This document shows positions 1,513-5,851 of a stretch of 64,000 nt of DNA, piece after piece. The translations under genes were made by a program, and so were the position numbers. Positions within the stretch are counted from its first letter, which is position 1. Each line of letters opens with the position of its first letter. The stretch is from Escherichia phage LF82-1. The stretch lies in sequence record PV648359; one strand, given 5' to 3'. The notes below the pieces were generated by a model. That model did no database searches. It was given only the letters and a program-made list of their open reading frames with translations, and was not told the DNA's origin.

Positions 1513-1749
1513 TTTGAATTTCTTGGCAATGTTGATATAACGTAAAGCTTCAGAATCTATACTTCCAAGAACACTATGAAGGAATGCATCAGTGTAGTAT
1601 TCCAATTGAACAGGTTCTTTAATCACTTTAGCCGCTTTGGTTTCAAACAGGCCCATAAGGGCCTTTTTAAGAATTTGTTCGTTAGTGTTCAGTTTTATAG
1701 TCAAAATCTCTTCATTAAGTTGGTGGTTAAAAGTTTTTCTAGAAATCAT
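1510..1749 (-). CDS. Hypothetical protein (79 aa)
   Basis: ORF track; ATGA overlap with upstream ORF suggests translational coupling. Confidence 0.5.
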   Translation of the reverse strand: MISRKTFNHQLNEEILTIKLNTNEQILKKALMGLFETKAAKVIKEPVQLEYYTDAFLHSVLGSIDSEALRYINIAKKFK

Positions 1750-2906
1750 TCCGGGTACCTCAAAGCGTCATCAGAGTTAGTTATATCAATAATAGATATA
1801 GAGTTTTCTGATAACCCATTTTTAGATAACTGACGTTTATAATATCTTTCACAATATGTACACGTCGTCCCGCAGATTTCATTAGCACAATCGAAATCTG
1901 GATGTCTGAACCACCTTTTTTCTAAAAAACCGTCTAACAATGAGGTTTCAATATTTACTGTATGTGAAAACTCAGTCTCATTTTCAAGAGTGAAAATAGT
2001 CTCTAAAGGCTTCCACAGTTCTAACAAATTACCTTCAAACTTTTCAGAAGCGTATGCTTCAAGAACTTTCAAAATGTAGTCTGTGCTACCTGTACGTCCT
2101 GAAACTTTGAATTGAGTGATACCAATATCATTATAAAGTTTCAAATCTTGAGGACGAACAAAACGAGTTCTCAACCAGTTAAATGGGTCTGTATCACGAG
2201 CTTTAATGCAGTGTTGCATTGGATATCCATTTAAGGATTTAGCATCATCAGCTGTAACATCAGTACTATGGAAAATATAGCAAGAGTCACGATAACTACA
2301 ATGTGTTGTATACCCTTTACCAGCATTAGAACAGAACTCATTTACAAGAACTTCAAATATTATATTGTTCTTATTGCAAAACTCTGCTGCACGCTTCAGG
2401 AAAGAAACTGAACGGTTCTTATGAATTCCACAGCAGACCTTTTTGATATTGTATTGGTCATGTAAGTATTTTATTTGAGTTACAGCATCGACATGTAGAA
2501 TTGTTGAAACTTCAATCTCAATGTCTTTATTGACTTCACGAACAATTTCCATAACAACAGGGTTAGCGATAGTAATACGCCATACGCCTATTGACCAAAG
2601 ATACTGAACATAATCCTGAATAGCTTTCTTCTTCCACTCGACTAGTTCTCTTTTTGAACCAGGATTTATCGTGTTGAGTGTATAGTTAAAGCAAATACCT
2701 AATTCGTTACAACGTTTAACGTAATCTTCTAACATCTTTTTGTCAACGTCAGGAAGCCTAAAATCAGGTCTGGCTGCTACAAAAGCCATTTCTCTTGTAG
2801 AGCCATATACTTCGTTTATCAAGCTATTAGGATAGGTTTTATTGAGCTCTACGATTTTATCAAGAAGAGCTAAATCAAAATTCGTTCCGATTTTAAAAGT
2901 ATTCAT
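1746..2906 (-). CDS. Cys-rich hypothetical protein (386 aa) with C-terminal CxxxCxYC motif; part of the modification cassette
   Basis: Long ORF; motifs KVCCGIH, HCSYRDSC, CANEICGTTCTYC; no confident family assignment by eye. Confidence 0.6.
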   Translation of the reverse strand: MNTFKIGTNFDLALLDKIVELNKTYPNSLINEVYGSTREMAFVAARPDFRLPDVDKKMLEDYVKRCNELGICFNYTLNTINPGSKRELVEWKKKAIQDYVQYLWSIGVWRITIANPVVMEIVREVNKDIEIEVSTILHVDAVTQIKYLHDQYNIKKVCCGIHKNRSVSFLKRAAEFCNKNNIIFEVLVNEFCSNAGKGYTTHCSYRDSCYIFHSTDVTADDAKSLNGYPMQHCIKARDTDPFNWLRTRFVRPQDLKLYNDIGITQFKVSGRTGSTDYILKVLEAYASEKFEGNLLELWKPLETIFTLENETEFSHTVNIETSLLDGFLEKRWFRHPDFDCANEICGTTCTYCERYYKRQLSKNGLSENSISIIDITNSDDALRYPE

Positions 2907-2962
2907 TTTTTTGCATCTCGCGTTAATTGATGCGATGGTTTTTGCAGGTCTTACTTAAATTA

Positions 2963-3364
2963 TTATAGATTTGGTTTATATGATTTAAATGTTTCGAATT
3001 CGCCTTTATTCATAAGAGCTTTGAATTCGTCAGGACGCATAGCTTTGTCGTCGATAATCCAATCATATACTGGTTTATGTGTTAGCAAATTATGGTACTT
3101 CAAACCAATGTTTTCCAAGTTCTGAATCAGACTTGGGAGAATGTCAATTGCTATACGACCAGGACCTACCGACTTCATACCACGGGCAGTGTAAAGCGTT
3201 ATGGTATGCCCTGCATCATACAGAGCATTAATGGCAGACACCATTTCGACGTCTGGTTTGAAGTTCACGTAATCACGATTGTTATTCCACTCTGTTATAC
3301 AATCATCGACATCAAAACAAAGATTAAGCATGTTTTCTACACGGTGCATTAGATTCGTTCCCAT
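2963..3364 (-). CDS. HAD-like small phosphatase (core domain only)
   Basis: 133 aa; motif I-like FDVDDCIT, motif II ITLYTAR, motif IV WIIDDK; 16-nt overlap with upstream gene. Confidence 0.5.
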   Translation of the reverse strand: MGTNLMHRVENMLNLCFDVDDCITEWNNNRDYVNFKPDVEMVSAINALYDAGHTITLYTARGMKSVGPGRIAIDILPSLIQNLENIGLKYHNLLTHKPVYDWIIDDKAMRPDEFKALMNKGEFETFKSYKPNL

Positions 3365-5034
3365 TGATGAGTGATATCGCCACCGATTGGACGATAAGAA
3401 ACACCAGTTTCTTTATCAGTTAGTACCCATTTACCAGGATTTTTTGTAATCAGAGTAGCCGTTACAGGTTCTGCTACGTCATAACTAATAGAGCCGTCTT
3501 GAAGTACACGGCCCATGTTACGTAATTGCTTAGTCAGAAGTTCCATACCTTTATAATATGCGGCTACCGCTTTAAGTGGATTATTCTTGAAATAACCACC
3601 TAATGCAATCCAGATAATTGCCACCGCCAAATGATGATACTCGTTAAACGAACTCATCTTTCCATATTTGTAAATTAATGGATTGATGTTAATAGTCACA
3701 TTACAAGTTGTTTCATCAATAGTAAACTGTCCCCAGGTCGGATTAGCATTGAATTCATCATAACCTGAAACAGCATAAAGCACTTTAGCTTCATCATACA
3801 ATTTTGGCCCGTAAATCTTGGTTTCGCCAAAATATCCACGAGGGTCGATAAACTTGACTTCGCCGTTATCAGTAATCATAGTATTACTGAAGTTCGGGTC
3901 ACCATGAATAACAGAGTACTGTCCCTGAGAACGATTATGATAACGAATAAGGTGTTCTAAAGCTTGTTTCAGCATTGGCTTCAGACGTCCAATCTTAGTG
4001 TAGTTCACATGTGTGATTTTACCAAATGAATCAATCAATGGTTGAATACTTTCACAACGATCAATAACTTTCGTATAGAATTCTTTAGTGAAATCACGAC
4101 GAACAGTTTCAGGACTTACAAAATACGTGTCTGTGCTGAATTTCAGTGCATCTAAAATTGCATCAACAATTTGTGGACGAGCAAGACTTGATTTGGATTT
4201 AATATATTCAAATGCCGGCTTACCTTTAATGCGTTCCATTTCAAAGTTATTTTCATTAACAGAAACTAACTGAGGAACTGAATCTGATTTCACTTTCAAA
4301 TACCACGAAATCTCATCTTTCTGAAGAGCTCGTCCCTGTTCGGTTAATGCGAATTTAGTTACAGTTTCTTCACCAATTTCAACTGCATTAAAACTACGAT
4401 TAAGTTCACGAACTTCATGAGCTTTTTCAAGTTTAGGCATATCACCTAAATCAATTAGATTCATAAGCTCTGATTTATTGAATGCGCCGCTGTAAAGGAA
4501 TTCTACGAAATCACGTCCTTTGCAGTATTCATGAATTTCCTCATCGGTAGAACCCATATAGAATTCCCAGTCTTTGAACTGATAAATTCCTACAACATTA
4601 CCACCTGTTGAACCTACGTTAGTGATATTTTCACCGTCGAAATTATACCGACATTCGTCACCCTTAACATAGATTGCGTTAACATTCCAAGACCATGAAC
4701 CAAAATCAGGAATAATATCACACCAGTTAACAATTACATTATGGCCATCTAAATCTTTGTGTAATTTAGCAAGAGCATAAGCAGAACCATACGCTTCATC
4801 AACTGTACGAATAGTCACATTGAACCCTTCTTGCTCACAATAAGCTCGAACAGTTTCAGCAAATTTTGAATGAACTACTACAATAATTTCATCTGCGCCA
4901 AGGTCAGAATAAATTGTATACAAATTGCTCAGAATAGTGTCTTGTTTATAGTTAACAAGCACCTTAGGAATATGATGCGTTATTGGATACAAACGAGTTG
5001 CCAGTCCAGCACCAAGAATAACAGCTTTTTTCAT
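3349..5034 (-). CDS. Bifunctional sugar-1-phosphate nucleotidyltransferase (N-terminal, LicC/RmlA-like) and kinase (C-terminal, APH/choline-kinase fold)
   Basis: 561 aa; N-terminal MKKAVILGAGLATRLYPIT (GxGxR NTase signature); C-terminal Brenner motif VIHGDPNFSN and metal-binding IDPRGYFG. Confidence 0.75.
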   Translation of the reverse strand: MKKAVILGAGLATRLYPITHHIPKVLVNYKQDTILSNLYTIYSDLGADEIIVVVHSKFAETVRAYCEQEGFNVTIRTVDEAYGSAYALAKLHKDLDGHNVIVNWCDIIPDFGSWSWNVNAIYVKGDECRYNFDGENITNVGSTGGNVVGIYQFKDWEFYMGSTDEEIHEYCKGRDFVEFLYSGAFNKSELMNLIDLGDMPKLEKAHEVRELNRSFNAVEIGEETVTKFALTEQGRALQKDEISWYLKVKSDSVPQLVSVNENNFEMERIKGKPAFEYIKSKSSLARPQIVDAILDALKFSTDTYFVSPETVRRDFTKEFYTKVIDRCESIQPLIDSFGKITHVNYTKIGRLKPMLKQALEHLIRYHNRSQGQYSVIHGDPNFSNTMITDNGEVKFIDPRGYFGETKIYGPKLYDEAKVLYAVSGYDEFNANPTWGQFTIDETTCNVTININPLIYKYGKMSSFNEYHHLAVAIIWIALGGYFKNNPLKAVAAYYKGMELLTKQLRNMGRVLQDGSISYDVAEPVTATLITKNPGKWVLTDKETGVSYRPIGGDITHQWERI

Positions 5035-5215
5035 GTTGTGGTCCTCATTGGTAAGTAGGAGTATTGTACACTATTCTAGTTAAAGCATCCATACTTTGCT
5101 TGTAGTCCAATCATAATCCATCCGATTATAAGAGTCGGAATCATTACTGGAGCCGTTAAGCTCCAGTAGATAGTCATGACAAGCATCAATAGTAAAAGTC
5201 CTATTGTTATTGCTT

Positions 5216-5851
5216 TCATTGCTCGCCTCGTAACATGGCACCTAGTGCACCGCCTGGATGGAACTTAAGGAAATCATTAGAGGTAAATCCACGTTCAGAC
5301 GAAAGGTTGATAGCAAAAGTATCGATAAGCGCTAACAATAATGTAGTGGACATGGTCGGAGCCAGAGAATTCTCATCAACCTCTACTGCGATGCCTGTAC
5401 AGAAAGAGTAATCAAAAAGGGCTTCATTTTCTTGTGGAATGTCTGGGTTACAATGCAACAGAATCTGTTTGACGTTCGGTCGAATCATTTTAAGATGCTT
5501 AGCCACGCCTATCATTTCTTCAGTTTTACCAGAACGACTAATATGAATCAACACATCATTAGGCGCAATAAATCCTGCATCACCGTGAGAATAATGCCCA
5601 GTGTTCAAGTACATACTTGGGATACCGAGTGAAGCAAATGTCTCAGAAGCTTTAGTTGCAATATTAGCATTCTTACCAACACCTGTAATAATTACTCGGC
5701 TTTCATAATTACTAAGTCCAGGGCGTCGAAGAGTTTCTAGAATAGCATTATAACGAGCAGGGTTTTGACTAATTACTTTGGCCATAGCGGCCAAAGAAGA
5801 AGCTTGTTTTATGATTGCGTCAATAGCGATATTAATAGGAGTAGTTTTCAT
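5216..5851 (-). CDS. SIS-domain sugar-phosphate isomerase, KdsD/GutQ-like (arabinose-5-phosphate isomerase type), no CBS domains
   Basis: 211 aa; RVIITGVGKN, HGDAGF, ISRSGKTEE, LAPTMSTT, FHPGGALGAML closely parallel KdsD SIS motifs. Confidence 0.75.
   Translation of the reverse strand: MKTTPINIAIDAIIKQASSLAAMAKVISQNPARYNAILETLRRPGLSNYESRVIITGVGKNANIATKASETFASLGIPSMYLNTGHYSHGDAGFIAPNDVLIHISRSGKTEEMIGVAKHLKMIRPNVKQILLHCNPDIPQENEALFDYSFCTGIAVEVDENSLAPTMSTTLLLALIDTFAINLSSERGFTSNDFLKFHPGGALGAMLRGEQ

What the first reader, a model, noticed from the sequence alone, without database searches (positions are those of the whole stretch)
1746..5851. Four-gene cassette between genes 42 and 43 predicts a phage-encoded NDP-pentose (arabinose) donor pathway for hmC hypermodification
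Where T4 has only imm between genes 43 and 42, this genome carries four co-oriented ORFs: a KdsD/GutQ-like SIS isomerase (HGDAGF, ISRSGKTEE, LAPTMSTT, FHPGGALG), a 561-aa fusion of a LicC/RmlA-like nucleotidyltransferase (ILGAGLATRL) with an APH/choline-kinase-fold kinase (HGDPNFSN, IDPRG), a HAD-like phosphatase core, and a Cys-rich protein. The enzyme set is what is needed for ribulose-5-P -> arabinose-5-P -> arabinose -> arabinose-1-P -> NDP-arabinose. The cassette sits next to the hmC-forming enzyme, and no alpha-gt or beta-gt occupies the T4 positions. Arabinosyl-hmC has been reported for RB69-type phages, but to my knowledge the donor-synthesis genes have not been assigned, so this is a concrete and testable candidate. 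A CDP- or UDP-linked alditol or other pentose is an alternative product.
Basis: partly seen in the sequence, partly recalled or inferred. Interest (0 to 1): 0.88.

Follow-up and report, generated by a model that had tools for sequence, protein, structure and literature searches.

The report
Phage arabinose-donor genes plus unassigned U32 enzyme
Three of the four genes are the already-published pathway by which RB69-type phages make UDP-arabinose to decorate 5-hydroxycytosine (not hmC) in their DNA, while the fourth, still unassigned, looks like an oxygen-independent hydroxylase that could make the same modified base when no O2 is available.

Summary
Window 1746-5851 holds four co-oriented minus-strand ORFs between the DNA polymerase and the gene-42 homologue. 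The phage is a Mosigvirus: 100% identical to the LF82-2 phages, with proteins 98.5-99.7% identical to RB69's.

- Thomas 2018 proposed these genes as UDP-arabinose genes.
- Lee 2026 and He 2026 assigned them: gp55 is arabinose-5-P isomerase, gp52:53 is an Ara5P 1-kinase plus uridylyltransferase (AfhE-like), and gp51 is the Ara-1,5-P2 5-phosphatase (AfhF-like).
- The route goes through arabinose-1,5-bisphosphate, not free arabinose.
- The acceptor is 5-hydroxycytosine, not hmC. It is made by the neighbouring FMN- and O2-dependent ThyA-like enzyme.

The "Cys-rich protein" (gp50) is a U32-family Fe-S protein that travels with the hydroxylase, not with the sugar genes.
- In 13 of 15 Straboviridae loci examined, a chorismate mutase (the prephenate-forming enzyme) is wedged between the two.
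- It is absent from the Acinetobacter phage examined.
- In 40 other phage lineages, where host labels exist all from anaerobes, it sits with arabinose and glycosyltransferase genes but no clear ThyA-like gene.

I infer a prephenate-dependent, O2-independent base hydroxylase. I found no such assignment in the accessible literature. This is untested.

The parts
5216..5851 (-). D-arabinose-5-phosphate isomerase (RB69 gp55 equivalent). SIS domain only, with no CBS domains. Converts ribulose-5-P to arabinose-5-P.
   Evidence: Pfam SIS E 9e-11. NCBIfam KpsF/GutQ 112.8 bits and KdsD 107.6 bits. PDB sequence hits 3ETN 2.6e-25, 5UQI and 2XHZ (KdsD) 3.5e-19. 99.5% identical to RB69 gp55. Function assigned in PMC13326640.
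5076..5219 (-). 47-aa hydrophobic small ORF (RB69 ORF054c-like). Its start overlaps the isomerase stop codon. Role unknown.
   Evidence: ORF list. PHROG phrog_3610 E 6e-26, function unknown. Small ORFs in the same position in Serratia phage LC53 (annotated with transmembrane segments) and Yersinia phage TG1; their homology to the window ORF was not tested.
3349..5034 (-). Bifunctional enzyme (RB69 gp52:53, AfhE-like). The C-terminal APH/choline-kinase-fold domain phosphorylates Ara5P at C1. The N-terminal sugar-1-P nucleotidyltransferase makes UDP-arabinofuranose from Ara1P.
   Evidence: Pfam NTP_transferase residues 3-99, E 8.5e-10, plus weak kinase-family hits at residues 344-409. PDB 1JYK 2e-5. 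About 99% identical to RB69 ORF053c + ORF052c, which are one gene split by a sequencing error in the reference. Function per PMC13326640, citing He et al. 2026.
2963..3364 (-). HAD-type phosphatase (RB69 gp51, AfhF-like). Removes the 5-phosphate of arabinose-1,5-bisphosphate to give Ara1P.
   Evidence: NCBIfam capsule-biosynthesis phosphatase E 1.9e-13. Near-identical solved structure 9IQW (292 bits over 129 residues). 98.5% identical to RB69 gp51. Function.
1746..2906 (-). U32-family Fe-S protein (RB69 gp50). Not a sugar-pathway enzyme. Inferred to be a prephenate-dependent, O2-independent hydroxylase that makes the 5-hydroxy handle on the pyrimidine.
   Evidence: Pfam Peptidase_U32 42.2 bits against a cut-off of 22.4. 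AF2 model pLDDT 89.8; best PDB match is U32 protein 5D88, TM 0.73 on the target. hhalign to RlhA: probability 84%, E 7e-6, with E190/C203/C209 aligned to RlhA residues that I number E161/C169/C176. The RlhA paper shows E161 and two U32-motif cysteines to be essential. Ten invariant Cys. Context and distribution.
1510..1749 (-). 79-aa conserved small protein (RB69 ORF049c). Its start overlaps the U32 gene's stop codon. Function unknown. It is NOT the chorismate mutase found at this position in other genera.
   Evidence: No Pfam or NCBIfam hit. phrog_8601, unknown function. hhalign against the phage chorismate mutases: probability 0.1%. Yersinia TG1 and Pectobacterium PM2 carry both an ORF49-like gene and a CM.
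751..1467 (-). ThyA-family 5-hydroxy-dCMP synthase (RB69 gp48), FMN- and O2-dependent.
   Evidence: Pfam Thymidylat_synt E 2.4e-15. 99.2% identical to RB69 gp48. Near-identical solved structures 9IQC, 9IR2 and 9IQU (538 bits). Activity, 18O2 labelling and the flavin cofactor are reported in PMC13326640.
1..751 (-). N-terminal ~250 aa of arabinosyltransferase 1 (RB69 gp46:47). It runs off the window start. Its start codon overlaps the gp48 stop codon.
   Evidence: Translation is continuous and matches RB69 gp47 plus gp46 across the reference's frameshift site. Assigned as arabinosyltransferase 1 in PMC13326640, Table 1.

Best explanation
The window comes from an RB69-type (Mosigvirus) phage. 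Three of the four genes are its UDP-D-arabinofuranose donor module.

The sugar pathway (assigned or shown in the literature for near-identical proteins; transfer to this window is inferred from sequence identity):
- gp55 isomerises host ribulose-5-P to arabinose-5-P.
- The kinase half of gp52:53 phosphorylates C1, giving arabinose-1,5-bisphosphate.
- The HAD phosphatase gp51 removes the 5-phosphate.
- The nucleotidyltransferase half of gp52:53 couples Ara1P to UTP.

Arabinosyltransferases then attach the sugar to 5-hydroxycytosine in the DNA. One of them begins at window 751 and runs off the window. The base enters DNA as 5-hydroxy-dCTP, made from dCMP by the adjacent ThyA-like FMN- and O2-dependent synthase gp48. 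The base is not hmC.

The fourth gene (inferred, not shown). gp50 belongs functionally with gp48, not with the sugar genes. It is a U32-family Fe-S protein of the kind that performs prephenate-dependent, O2-independent C5 hydroxylation of pyrimidines (RlhA makes ho5C, TrhP makes ho5U). I infer that it supplies the same 5-hydroxy handle when O2 is scarce, for example in the gut. This would parallel E. coli's own paired systems TrhO/TrhP and UbiI,H,F/UbiU,V.
For: Identity and transfer of published function:
- The region is 100% identical to the LF82-2 phages and 97.8% to RB69 at the DNA level.
- The proteins are 98.5-99.7% identical to RB69's.
- Solved structures near-identical to gp48 and gp51 exist.

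Family evidence for the three sugar enzymes.

Evidence for gp50:
- U32 membership by Pfam, and by fold (best PDB match 5D88).
- The U32-motif Glu and two Cys align to the corresponding RlhA positions and are invariant, along with seven further Cys. The RlhA paper shows E161 and two U32-motif cysteines to be essential.
- In all 15 Straboviridae loci examined, the gene lies 1.2-1.9 kb upstream of the ThyA-like gene.
- In 13 of those 15 loci, and in 51 phage records overall, a Pfam-significant type II chorismate mutase sits beside or between them. In LC53 and Entb_45 both gene junctions overlap by 4 nt.
- It is absent from Acinetobacter phage Acj61, which keeps the full sugar set. The DLP3 cluster as listed in the paper also has no U32 gene. 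Acinetobacter is missing from the ten most frequent organism names among the 221 U32 hits (smallest listed count 3), while 57 Acinetobacter records carry AfhE.
- It is more conserved (83-89%) than DNA polymerase (70-80%) or AfhE (44-72%).
- There are 40 non-Straboviridae clusters of 37-71% homologues. None has a ThyA-like gene at >=50% query coverage within 8-10 kb. 21 have the gp46:47-type glycosyltransferase, 13 have AfhE-like plus that GT, and 9 have a chorismate mutase and/or DAHP synthase. One of these is a DAHPS-CM fusion directly upstream of U32.
- All 11 hits in species-level genomes are from MAGs or isolates of anaerobic or anoxic-habitat taxa.
- Prephenate-dependent U32 hydroxylation, and its pairing with an O2-dependent alternative, is established for TrhP/TrhO, RlhA and UbiU-V.
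Against: - Nothing biochemical was done here on this window's proteins. The sugar-pathway functions rest on near-identity to published proteins. I could read He et al. 2026 only through Lee et al.'s summary.
- There is no experimental evidence for gp50 at all.
- Only two of the four canonical U32 cluster cysteines align. The third and fourth must come from other invariant Cys.
- The profile match to UbiU was insignificant.
- Dhakavirus JS10 infects E. coli yet lacks U32, so the gene is not required by every phage of a facultative anaerobe.
- Mosigviruses (including this window) and Marfa lack the phage chorismate mutase.
- ThyA-like genes could lie outside the 8-10 kb flanks of the metagenomic loci. 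One locus (L049) has a weak partial ThyA-family hit.
- Host assignments of MAG-binned phage contigs can be wrong.
- Direct hydroxylase activity has not been reconstituted in vitro for any U32 protein.
Confidence: 0.85

Rival explanations
1. The cassette makes NDP-arabinose through free arabinose (Ara5P -> arabinose -> Ara1P) to hypermodify hydroxymethylcytosine made by a gene-42 dCMP hydroxymethylase. The Cys-rich protein is a fourth pathway component.
For: The enzyme classes fit. Table 1 of PMC13326640 still carries the older wording ('dephosphorylates Araf5p to Ara', 'phosphorylates Ara to Araf1p'). Thomas 2018 described the base as ara-hmC.
Against: LC-MS and NMR show an ether link to 5-hydroxycytosine. 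RB69 gp48 makes 5hodCMP using O2. The text of PMC13326640, following He et al., places the kinase on Ara5P and the phosphatase on Ara-1,5-P2. The U32 gene is absent from phages that still have the whole sugar set.
Confidence: 0.05
2. gp50 is a redox helper or 'sugar or heterocycle reductase'. For example, it could be an Fe-S electron-transfer partner that reduces the flavin of the ThyA-like synthase, or a reductase acting on the sugar or the base.
For: This label is given for RB69p050 in Table 1 of PMC13326640. The protein has a TIM-barrel fold with many conserved Cys. In Straboviridae it is always adjacent to gp48.
Against: It occurs without a clear ThyA-like gene nearby in 40 of 40 other clusters, so it cannot be only a partner of that enzyme. 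This reading gives no explanation for the repeated physical linkage to chorismate mutase and DAHP synthase. No reductive step is needed in the published pathway.
Confidence: 0.12
3. gp50 acts on host RNA, as RlhA and TrhP do (ho5C in 23S rRNA, ho5U in tRNA), to tune translation during infection. On this reading it is unrelated to DNA modification.
For: The only characterised U32 hydroxylations of pyrimidines are on RNA. The best profile match among the E. coli paralogues tested is RlhA.
Against: gp50 lacks RlhA's long C-terminal region; the RlhA alignment covers only RlhA residues 46-258 of 653. It is embedded in DNA-glycosylation and dNMP-metabolism modules in many unrelated phages, next to the gp46:47-type glycosyltransferase in 21 of 40 clusters, next to TAGT, and next to dCMP deaminase.
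Confidence: 0.07
4. gp50 is a genuine U32 peptidase (collagenase-like), as most database records annotate it.
For: The annotation 'peptidase' appears in many phage records, and PHROG phrog_5757 is labelled 'peptidase'.
Against: These names derive from the family label, not from assays. The characterised E. coli members are hydroxylation factors. The genomic context is nucleotide and DNA modification, and there is no signal for a secreted or structural role.
Confidence: 0.03

Closest known systems
Arabinosyl-5-hydroxycytosine pathway of RB69, HY126 and DLP3 (Afh genes; Thomas 2018, Mahler 2025, He 2026, Lee 2026)
   Same: Same genes, same order and essentially the same sequences. The proteins are 98.5-99.7% identical to RB69's, and there are near-identical PDB entries for gp48 and gp51. 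The isomerase, AfhE-like fusion, AfhF-like phosphatase, ThyA-like 5hodCMP synthase and arabinosyltransferase are all present.
   Different: Nothing material for the three sugar genes. The window's fusion gene and transferase gene are intact, whereas the RB69 reference has frameshift errors in both. Neither the U32 gene nor ORF49 has a function in the accessible papers: 'homologs among peptidases' and 'sugar or heterocycle reductase'.
E. coli prephenate-dependent U32 hydroxylation factors (RlhA, TrhP, UbiU-UbiV) and their O2-dependent counterparts (TrhO; UbiI, UbiH, UbiF)
   Same: U32 domain. The motif Glu and two Cys align to the corresponding RlhA positions. Additional invariant Cys could hold an Fe-S cluster. 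There is physical linkage to prephenate-forming enzymes. The gene is paired with an O2- and flavin-dependent enzyme that makes the same product. RlhA's product is likewise a C5-hydroxylated cytosine.
   Different: gp50 forms a distinct, phage-borne subfamily of about 360-390 aa. It has its own C-terminal CX4CX3CX2C motif and none of RlhA's long C-terminal region. Only two canonical Cys align. The presumed substrate is a deoxynucleotide or DNA, rather than RNA or a prenyl-phenol. No activity has been shown.
T4 glucosyl-hmC system (gp42 dCMP hydroxymethylase plus alpha- and beta-glucosyltransferases using host UDP-glucose)
   Same: Same genomic neighbourhood (between gene 43 and uvsX). Same logic: a ThyA-family enzyme makes a hydroxyl-bearing dCMP analogue that is later glycosylated on DNA.
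   Different: Here the base is 5-hydroxy rather than 5-hydroxymethyl. The cofactor is flavin with O2 rather than folate. The sugar donor is not a host metabolite, so the phage encodes its synthesis. RB69 is reported to lack homologues of T4 alpha- and beta-gt.
KdsD/GutQ arabinose-5-phosphate isomerases of the Kdo pathway
   Same: SIS domain with the KpsF/GutQ signature. Best solved relatives are 3ETN, 5UQI and 2XHZ.
   Different: 211 aa with the SIS domain only. It matches just the first ~153 of 268 positions of the KpsF/GutQ model and scores below the NCBIfam full-length cut-offs. From general knowledge, the missing part in KdsD holds the tandem CBS domains. The product feeds DNA modification, not Kdo.

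Membership tests
KpsF/GutQ/KdsD arabinose-5-phosphate isomerase | SIS domain of the KpsF/GutQ type | tested here: met
   Pfam SIS 42.1 bits against a cut-off of 25. 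TIGR00393 E 2e-32 and KdsD model E 7e-31. PDB 3ETN 2.6e-25 and 2XHZ 3.5e-19.
KpsF/GutQ/KdsD arabinose-5-phosphate isomerase | Full-length architecture (SIS plus the C-terminal region, which in KdsD holds two CBS domains) reaching the curated equivalog score | tested here: not met
   211 aa. It matches only positions 2-153 of 268 of the kpsF model, scoring 112.8 against 203.7. From my own knowledge, the solved 3ETN-type isomerases are also SIS-only, so this does not argue against the activity.
KpsF/GutQ/KdsD arabinose-5-phosphate isomerase | Ru5P <-> Ara5P isomerase activity | not testable with these tools
   Assigned computationally for RB69 gp55 in PMC13326640.
AfhE-type bifunctional Ara5P 1-kinase / UDP-arabinose pyrophosphorylase | N-terminal sugar-1-P nucleotidyltransferase domain with the GxGxR loop | tested here: met
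   Pfam NTP_transferase residues 3-99, 39.1 bits against 21.2. LGAGLATRL is present in the sequence. PDB 1JYK 2e-5.
AfhE-type bifunctional Ara5P 1-kinase / UDP-arabinose pyrophosphorylase | C-terminal APH/choline-kinase-fold kinase with an HxDxxxxN catalytic loop and a downstream metal-binding Asp | tested here: inconclusive
   HGDPNFSN and IDPRG are present. Pfam kinase-family hits are all below their cut-offs (E 0.002-0.009). Structural matches to 3HAM and 6HWL are reported for the RB69 protein.
AfhE-type bifunctional Ara5P 1-kinase / UDP-arabinose pyrophosphorylase | Orthology to the biochemically characterised HY126 AfhE | tested here: inconclusive
The window protein is ~99% identical to RB69 gp52:53, which PMC13326640 equates with AfhE. 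The flanking proteins gp48 and gp51 are near-identical to PDB entries 9IQC and 9IQW, which I presume come from He et al.'s study.
AfhF-type HAD phosphatase | HAD fold with a DxD nucleophile motif, and near-identity to the characterised or solved protein | tested here: met
   DVDDC at residues 19-23. TIGR01689 E 1.9e-13. PDB 9IQW 4e-87 and 1XPJ 1.5e-10.
[quoted passage not shown] | ThyA fold with D169N and N177D (E. coli ThyA numbering), and near-identity to an experimentally tested member | tested here: met
   Pfam Thymidylat_synt. 99.2% identical to RB69 gp48, whose activity was shown experimentally. PDB 9IQC at 538 bits. The sequence reads ...MRSQNCAVVMQLD...; my alignment by eye puts N at position 169 and D at 177. 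The signature itself is described.
U32 (Peptidase_U32) prephenate-dependent hydroxylation family | U32 domain and fold | tested here: met
   Pfam 42.2 bits against 22.4. AF2 pLDDT 89.8, and the best PDB hit is U32 protein 5D88. hhalign to RlhA: probability 84%, E 7e-6.
U32 (Peptidase_U32) prephenate-dependent hydroxylation family | Conserved U32-motif Glu and two motif Cys that are essential in RlhA | tested here: met
   gp50 E190, C203 and C209 align to the Glu and the two Cys of RlhA's EFFIHGALCVAYSGQC motif. I number these E161, C169 and C176 by counting from the residues the paper names. All three are invariant across 32 family members. The RlhA paper shows E161 and two U32-motif cysteines to be essential.
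U32 (Peptidase_U32) prephenate-dependent hydroxylation family | Four Cys ligands for a [4Fe-4S] cluster in the canonical CX6CX15CX3-4C spacing | tested here: inconclusive
   The canonical third and fourth Cys are not aligned. However, ten Cys are invariant, including C192, C233 and a C-terminal CX4CX3CX2C. UbiU and UbiV also use non-canonical positions (my knowledge).
U32 (Peptidase_U32) prephenate-dependent hydroxylation family | Dependence on prephenate | not testable with these tools
   Indirect evidence only. A Pfam-significant chorismate mutase lies next to the gene in 51 phage records. DAHP synthase or a DAHPS-CM fusion lies next to homologues in other phages.
U32 (Peptidase_U32) prephenate-dependent hydroxylation family | O2-independent hydroxylase activity on a defined substrate | not testable with these tools
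   Inferred from distribution. Absent from the Acinetobacter phage examined. Present together with the O2-dependent enzyme in phages of Enterobacterales and Shewanella. Present without it in anaerobe-associated contigs.

The most novel reading that the evidence does not exclude
gp50 and its phage-borne U32 subfamily are prephenate-dependent, O2-independent pyrimidine C5 hydroxylases for DNA hypermodification.

In Mosigvirus-type phages, gp50 would give a second, anaerobic route to 5-hydroxy-dCMP (or to 5-hydroxycytosine in DNA), alongside the O2- and FMN-dependent ThyA-like synthase. Many related phages also bring their own chorismate mutase to supply the oxygen donor.

In phages of strict anaerobes, the U32 enzyme would be the only hydroxylase feeding arabinosyl or other glycosyl modification.

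This would be the first DNA-directed U32 hydroxylase. It would also be a viral instance of the aerobic/anaerobic dual-pathway principle known from TrhO/TrhP and from UbiI,H,F/UbiU,V.
Probability: 0.6. Interest if true: 0.8.

Novelty: already known. Interest (0 to 1): 0.42.

Why it matters
The claim as submitted adds nothing new. The donor pathway, and the true base (5-hydroxycytosine), are already in the literature for essentially identical phages. The value of this check is the correction.

The fourth gene is where something may be gained.
- The only known phage route to 5-hydroxycytosine needs molecular oxygen, yet these coliphages live in the largely anoxic gut.
- A prephenate-dependent U32 hydroxylase encoded right beside that enzyme would explain how the modification is kept up without O2.
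- It would extend U32 chemistry from RNA and quinones to DNA precursors.
- It would explain why phages carry chorismate mutase or DAHP synthase genes.
- It would give a marker gene for hydroxy-pyrimidine glycosylation in phages of anaerobes.
- These phages are used for therapy and engineering, so oxygen-dependent differences in their DNA modification would also matter in practice.

Tried and rejected
- I tested whether the window's 79-aa ORF (1510-1749) is the chorismate mutase seen at that position in other genera. It is not. It has no Pfam or NCBIfam hit, hhalign gives probability 0.1%, and TG1 and PM2 carry both genes.
- Direct MAFFT alignment of gp50 with UbiU, UbiV, RlhA and TrhP was unreliable in the Cys-rich half.
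- hhalign to UbiU was insignificant.
- Sequence search of the PDB with gp50 found nothing.
- The afdb50 fold library was unavailable.
- The sigma-70 promoter and terminator scan gave no more sites than shuffled sequence.
- He et al. 2026 and Mahler et al. 2025 could not be retrieved, so I cannot exclude that they discuss the U32 gene.
- Four full-text searches combining U32, prephenate, chorismate mutase, phage and hydroxycytosine found no relevant paper, and none of the phage papers I could read mentions U32 or chorismate.
- I considered that the DAHP_synth_1 neighbour might be a Kdo-8-P synthase, which would fit with the isomerase. NCBIfam scores favour DAHP synthase: 237 against 63 bits, and 150 against 38 bits with a fused CM domain.

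Full report
**1. Observation**

Positions 1746-5851 contain four co-oriented minus-strand ORFs:
- 5216-5851 (211 aa)
- 3349-5034 (561 aa)
- 2963-3364 (133 aa)
- 1746-2906 (386 aa)

They lie between the DNA polymerase (5892-8603) and a ThyA-family gene (751-1467).

Family searches support three of the four labels:
- SIS domain, KpsF/GutQ type.
- NTP_transferase with a weak kinase-fold tail.
- HAD-type "capsule biosynthesis phosphatase".

Two small ORFs were overlooked: a 47-aa hydrophobic one at 5076-5219 and a 79-aa one at 1510-1749.

**2. Identity of the phage**

The block is 100% identical to the Escherichia LF82-2 phage series and 97.8% identical to RB69. The individual proteins are 98.5-99.7% identical to RB69 gp48, gp50, gp51, gp52:53 and gp55.

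The 561-aa fusion is intact here. In the RB69 reference it is split by a known sequencing error.

The PDB holds near-identical structures of the ThyA-like protein (9IQC, 9IR2, 9IQU; 538 bits) and of the HAD phosphatase (9IQW; 292 bits). Window 1-751 encodes the N-terminal part of arabinosyltransferase 1 (gp46:47), which runs off the window.

**3. What is already known**

- Thomas et al. 2018 (PMC6024577) found arabinose in RB69 DNA. They proposed ORF055c and ORF53_52c, within a module between the polymerase and uvsX, as UDP-arabinose genes.
- A 2021 survey listed RB69p045, p047, p049, p050 and p051 as "presumably" taking part in synthesis of the arabinosylated base; p050 was described as having "homologs among peptidases".
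- Lee et al. 2026 (PMC13326640) showed that the base is arabinosylated 5-hydroxycytosine with an ether link. They showed that RB69 gp48 is a 5-hydroxy-dCMP synthase that incorporates 18O from O2 and binds a flavin.
- The same paper assigned the sugar route: gp55 (Ru5P to Ara5P), the gp52:53 C-terminal domain (Ara5P to Ara-1,5-P2), gp51 (to Ara1P) and the gp52:53 N-terminal domain (to UDP-Araf). It cites He et al. 2026 for the biochemical demonstration with HY126 AfhE and AfhF.

It is wrong about the base, the neighbouring enzyme and the order of steps.

**4. The fourth gene is not a sugar-pathway gene**

Three phages carry the sugar genes, the ThyA-like gene and the transferase but no U32 gene. 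Acj61 (Acinetobacter) and, per the paper, DLP3 have the isomerase, AfhE-like enzyme and phosphatase. Dhakavirus JS10 has the AfhE-like enzyme and phosphatase, with no isomerase hit in the locus examined.

Where the U32 gene is present, it always lies immediately upstream of the ThyA-like gene.

Across genera it is the best-conserved protein of the region:

| Protein | Identity to the window protein across genera |
|---|---|
| U32 (gp50) | 83-89% |
| DNA polymerase | 70-80% |
| AfhE-like (gp52:53) | 44-72% |

In the isolate-phage collection it occurs in 221 records, all at 80% identity or more. The hosts are Enterobacterales and Shewanella. The AfhE-like protein occurs in 376 records, including 57 Acinetobacter phages. 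Acinetobacter is not among the ten most frequent organism names in the U32 list, whose smallest listed count is 3.

**5. What kind of protein gp50 is**

The AF2 model is confident (pLDDT 89.8, pTM 0.88). Its best solved match is the U32 protein 5D88.

A 32-member family alignment shows ten invariant cysteines: C158, C177, C192, C203, C209, C233, C340, C345, C349 and C352.

Profile comparison with E. coli RlhA gives probability 84% and E 7e-6 over 204 columns. It places gp50 E190, C203 and C209 on the Glu and the two Cys of RlhA's U32 motif, which I number E161, C169 and C176. In RlhA, E161 and the two U32-motif cysteines are essential for 5-hydroxycytidine formation.

Background on the family:
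- RlhA (ho5C2501 in 23S rRNA) and TrhP (ho5U34 in tRNA) need prephenate. UbiU-V use prephenate as the oxygen donor under anoxia.
- TrhP and UbiU-V each have an O2-dependent counterpart: TrhO, and UbiI, UbiH and UbiF.

**6. Link to prephenate**

In Serratia LC53 and Enterobacter Entb_45 the order is U32, then chorismate mutase, then the ThyA-like gene. Both junctions overlap by 4 nt, and the mutases pass Pfam's CM_2 cut-off (40.9 and 44.6 bits against 27).

This mutase occurs in 51 phage records, essentially always overlapping or abutting a gene annotated as thymidylate synthase or dCMP hydroxymethylase. It is present in 13 of the 15 Straboviridae loci examined.

The window's ORF49 sits in the same slot but is unrelated to the mutase. 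Mosigviruses and Marfa therefore lack a phage-encoded mutase and would depend on the host's PheA and TyrA.

**7. Relatives outside Straboviridae**

Homologues of 37-71% identity occur on other phage contigs. They also occur on 11 contigs from MAGs or isolates of Erysipelotrichales, Oscillospiraceae, Gastranaerophilaceae, Romboutsia, Tannerella, Phocaeicola faecalis and sediment or groundwater phyla.

A conserved protein of about 334-525 aa next to them is homologous to the Straboviridae arabinosyltransferase 1 (hhalign probability 98.9%, E 1.6e-17).

I clustered the non-Straboviridae U32 proteins at 90% identity or more, giving 40 clusters, and searched 8-10 kb on each side:

| Neighbouring gene | Clusters (of 40) |
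|---|---|
| ThyA-like, >=50% query coverage | 0 (one weak partial hit, L049) |
| gp46:47-type glycosyltransferase | 21 |
| AfhE-like plus that glycosyltransferase | 13 |
| Chorismate mutase and/or DAHP synthase | 9 |
| dCMP deaminase | 7 |
| TAGT (TET-associated DNA glycosyltransferase) | 2 |

Two examples:
- L025 reads AfhE-like, HAD, SIS, DAHPS-CM fusion, U32, glycosyltransferase.
- L009 reads SIS, AfhE-like, U32, DAHP synthase.

The pattern has three states:
- Acinetobacter phages, whose hosts are strict aerobes: ThyA-like only.
- Phages of facultative anaerobes: both enzymes, usually with a chorismate mutase.
- Anaerobe-associated elements: U32 only.

This is the pattern expected if the two enzymes are alternative ways of installing the same hydroxyl.

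**8. Interpretation and limits**

I am confident of the sugar module, because it rests on near-identity to proteins with published assignments and partly published assays.

For gp50 I infer a prephenate-dependent, O2-independent hydroxylase that makes the 5-hydroxy handle. The substrate may be dCMP, another pyrimidine nucleotide, or cytosine in DNA. This is inference from family membership, conserved residues, gene linkage and distribution. No activity has been shown.

Weak points:
- Only two canonical cluster cysteines align.
- Dhakaviruses of E. coli lack the gene.
- The flanks examined are limited to 8-10 kb.
- MAG host labels may be wrong.
- I could not read two key papers.

Lee et al.'s Discussion mentions the two tRNA pyrimidine-hydroxylation pathways but does not connect them to gp50. 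Four full-text searches found no paper linking U32, prephenate or chorismate mutase to phage DNA hydroxylation.

**9. Verdict**

The finding as submitted is confirmed as an observation. As an interpretation it is already known and partly mistaken.

I found no report of it in the accessible literature, and it can be tested directly by anaerobic phage genetics and isotope labelling.

Noticed in passing
window 1510-1749 (-): A conserved 79-aa protein (phrog_8601) whose start overlaps the U32 stop codon. It is found in Mosigvirus, Tegunavirus (Yersinia TG1) and Pectobacterium PM2, next to U32. It is not a chorismate mutase, and its function is unknown. It could be an accessory factor of the U32 enzyme.
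   Followed up: partly
window 5076-5219 (-): A 47-aa strongly hydrophobic ORF between the isomerase and the fusion gene (phrog_3610). Small ORFs occupy the same position in LC53 and TG1. RB69 annotates the region as 'similar to T4 42-imm intercistronic region'.
   Followed up: no
window 1746-2906 vs loci L001, L002, L012, L013: The U32 protein is more conserved across phage genera (83-89%) than the DNA polymerase (70-80%). In Marfa-type Klebsiella phages it stays at 89% while the AfhE-like enzyme drops to 44%. This suggests unusually strong constraint or recent exchange.
   Followed up: partly
L007 13227-14360 and L023 13227-14357: A second, very divergent U32 paralogue (22% identity) lies about 5 kb from the first. 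It is beside a radical-SAM/SPASM gene, a deoxynucleoside kinase, NT5C and a nucleoside deoxyribosyltransferase-like gene. The pairing is reminiscent of UbiU/UbiV.
   Followed up: no
L018 4777-13179; L055: U32 is flanked by a gp46:47-type glycosyltransferase and by a TAGT (TET-associated glycosyltransferase, Pfam 33.9 bits against 27.5). In L018 there are also a dUTPase/dCTP-deaminase-family gene and a UDP-galactopyranose mutase. This looks like a hexose-type hypermodification cluster with U32 where a TET/JBP or ThyA-like hydroxylase would be expected.
   Followed up: partly
L025 6931-7959: A DAHP synthase fused to a C-terminal chorismate mutase domain, encoded on a phage-like contig directly upstream of U32. 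It appears to be an auxiliary metabolic gene that boosts prephenate supply.
   Followed up: partly
L010 (Escherichia phage JS10, Dhakavirus) 6062-11175: This E. coli phage has the AfhE-like, HAD, ThyA-like and transferase genes but no U32 and no recognisable SIS isomerase in the locus. It keeps an Imm gene next to the polymerase. It is a natural comparison phage for oxygen-dependence experiments.
   Followed up: partly
L014 (RB69 reference) 1952-2852 and 5449-7135: The RB69 reference still carries the two frameshift errors that split gp46/47 and gp52/53. The window sequence reads through both as single ORFs.
   Followed up: yes
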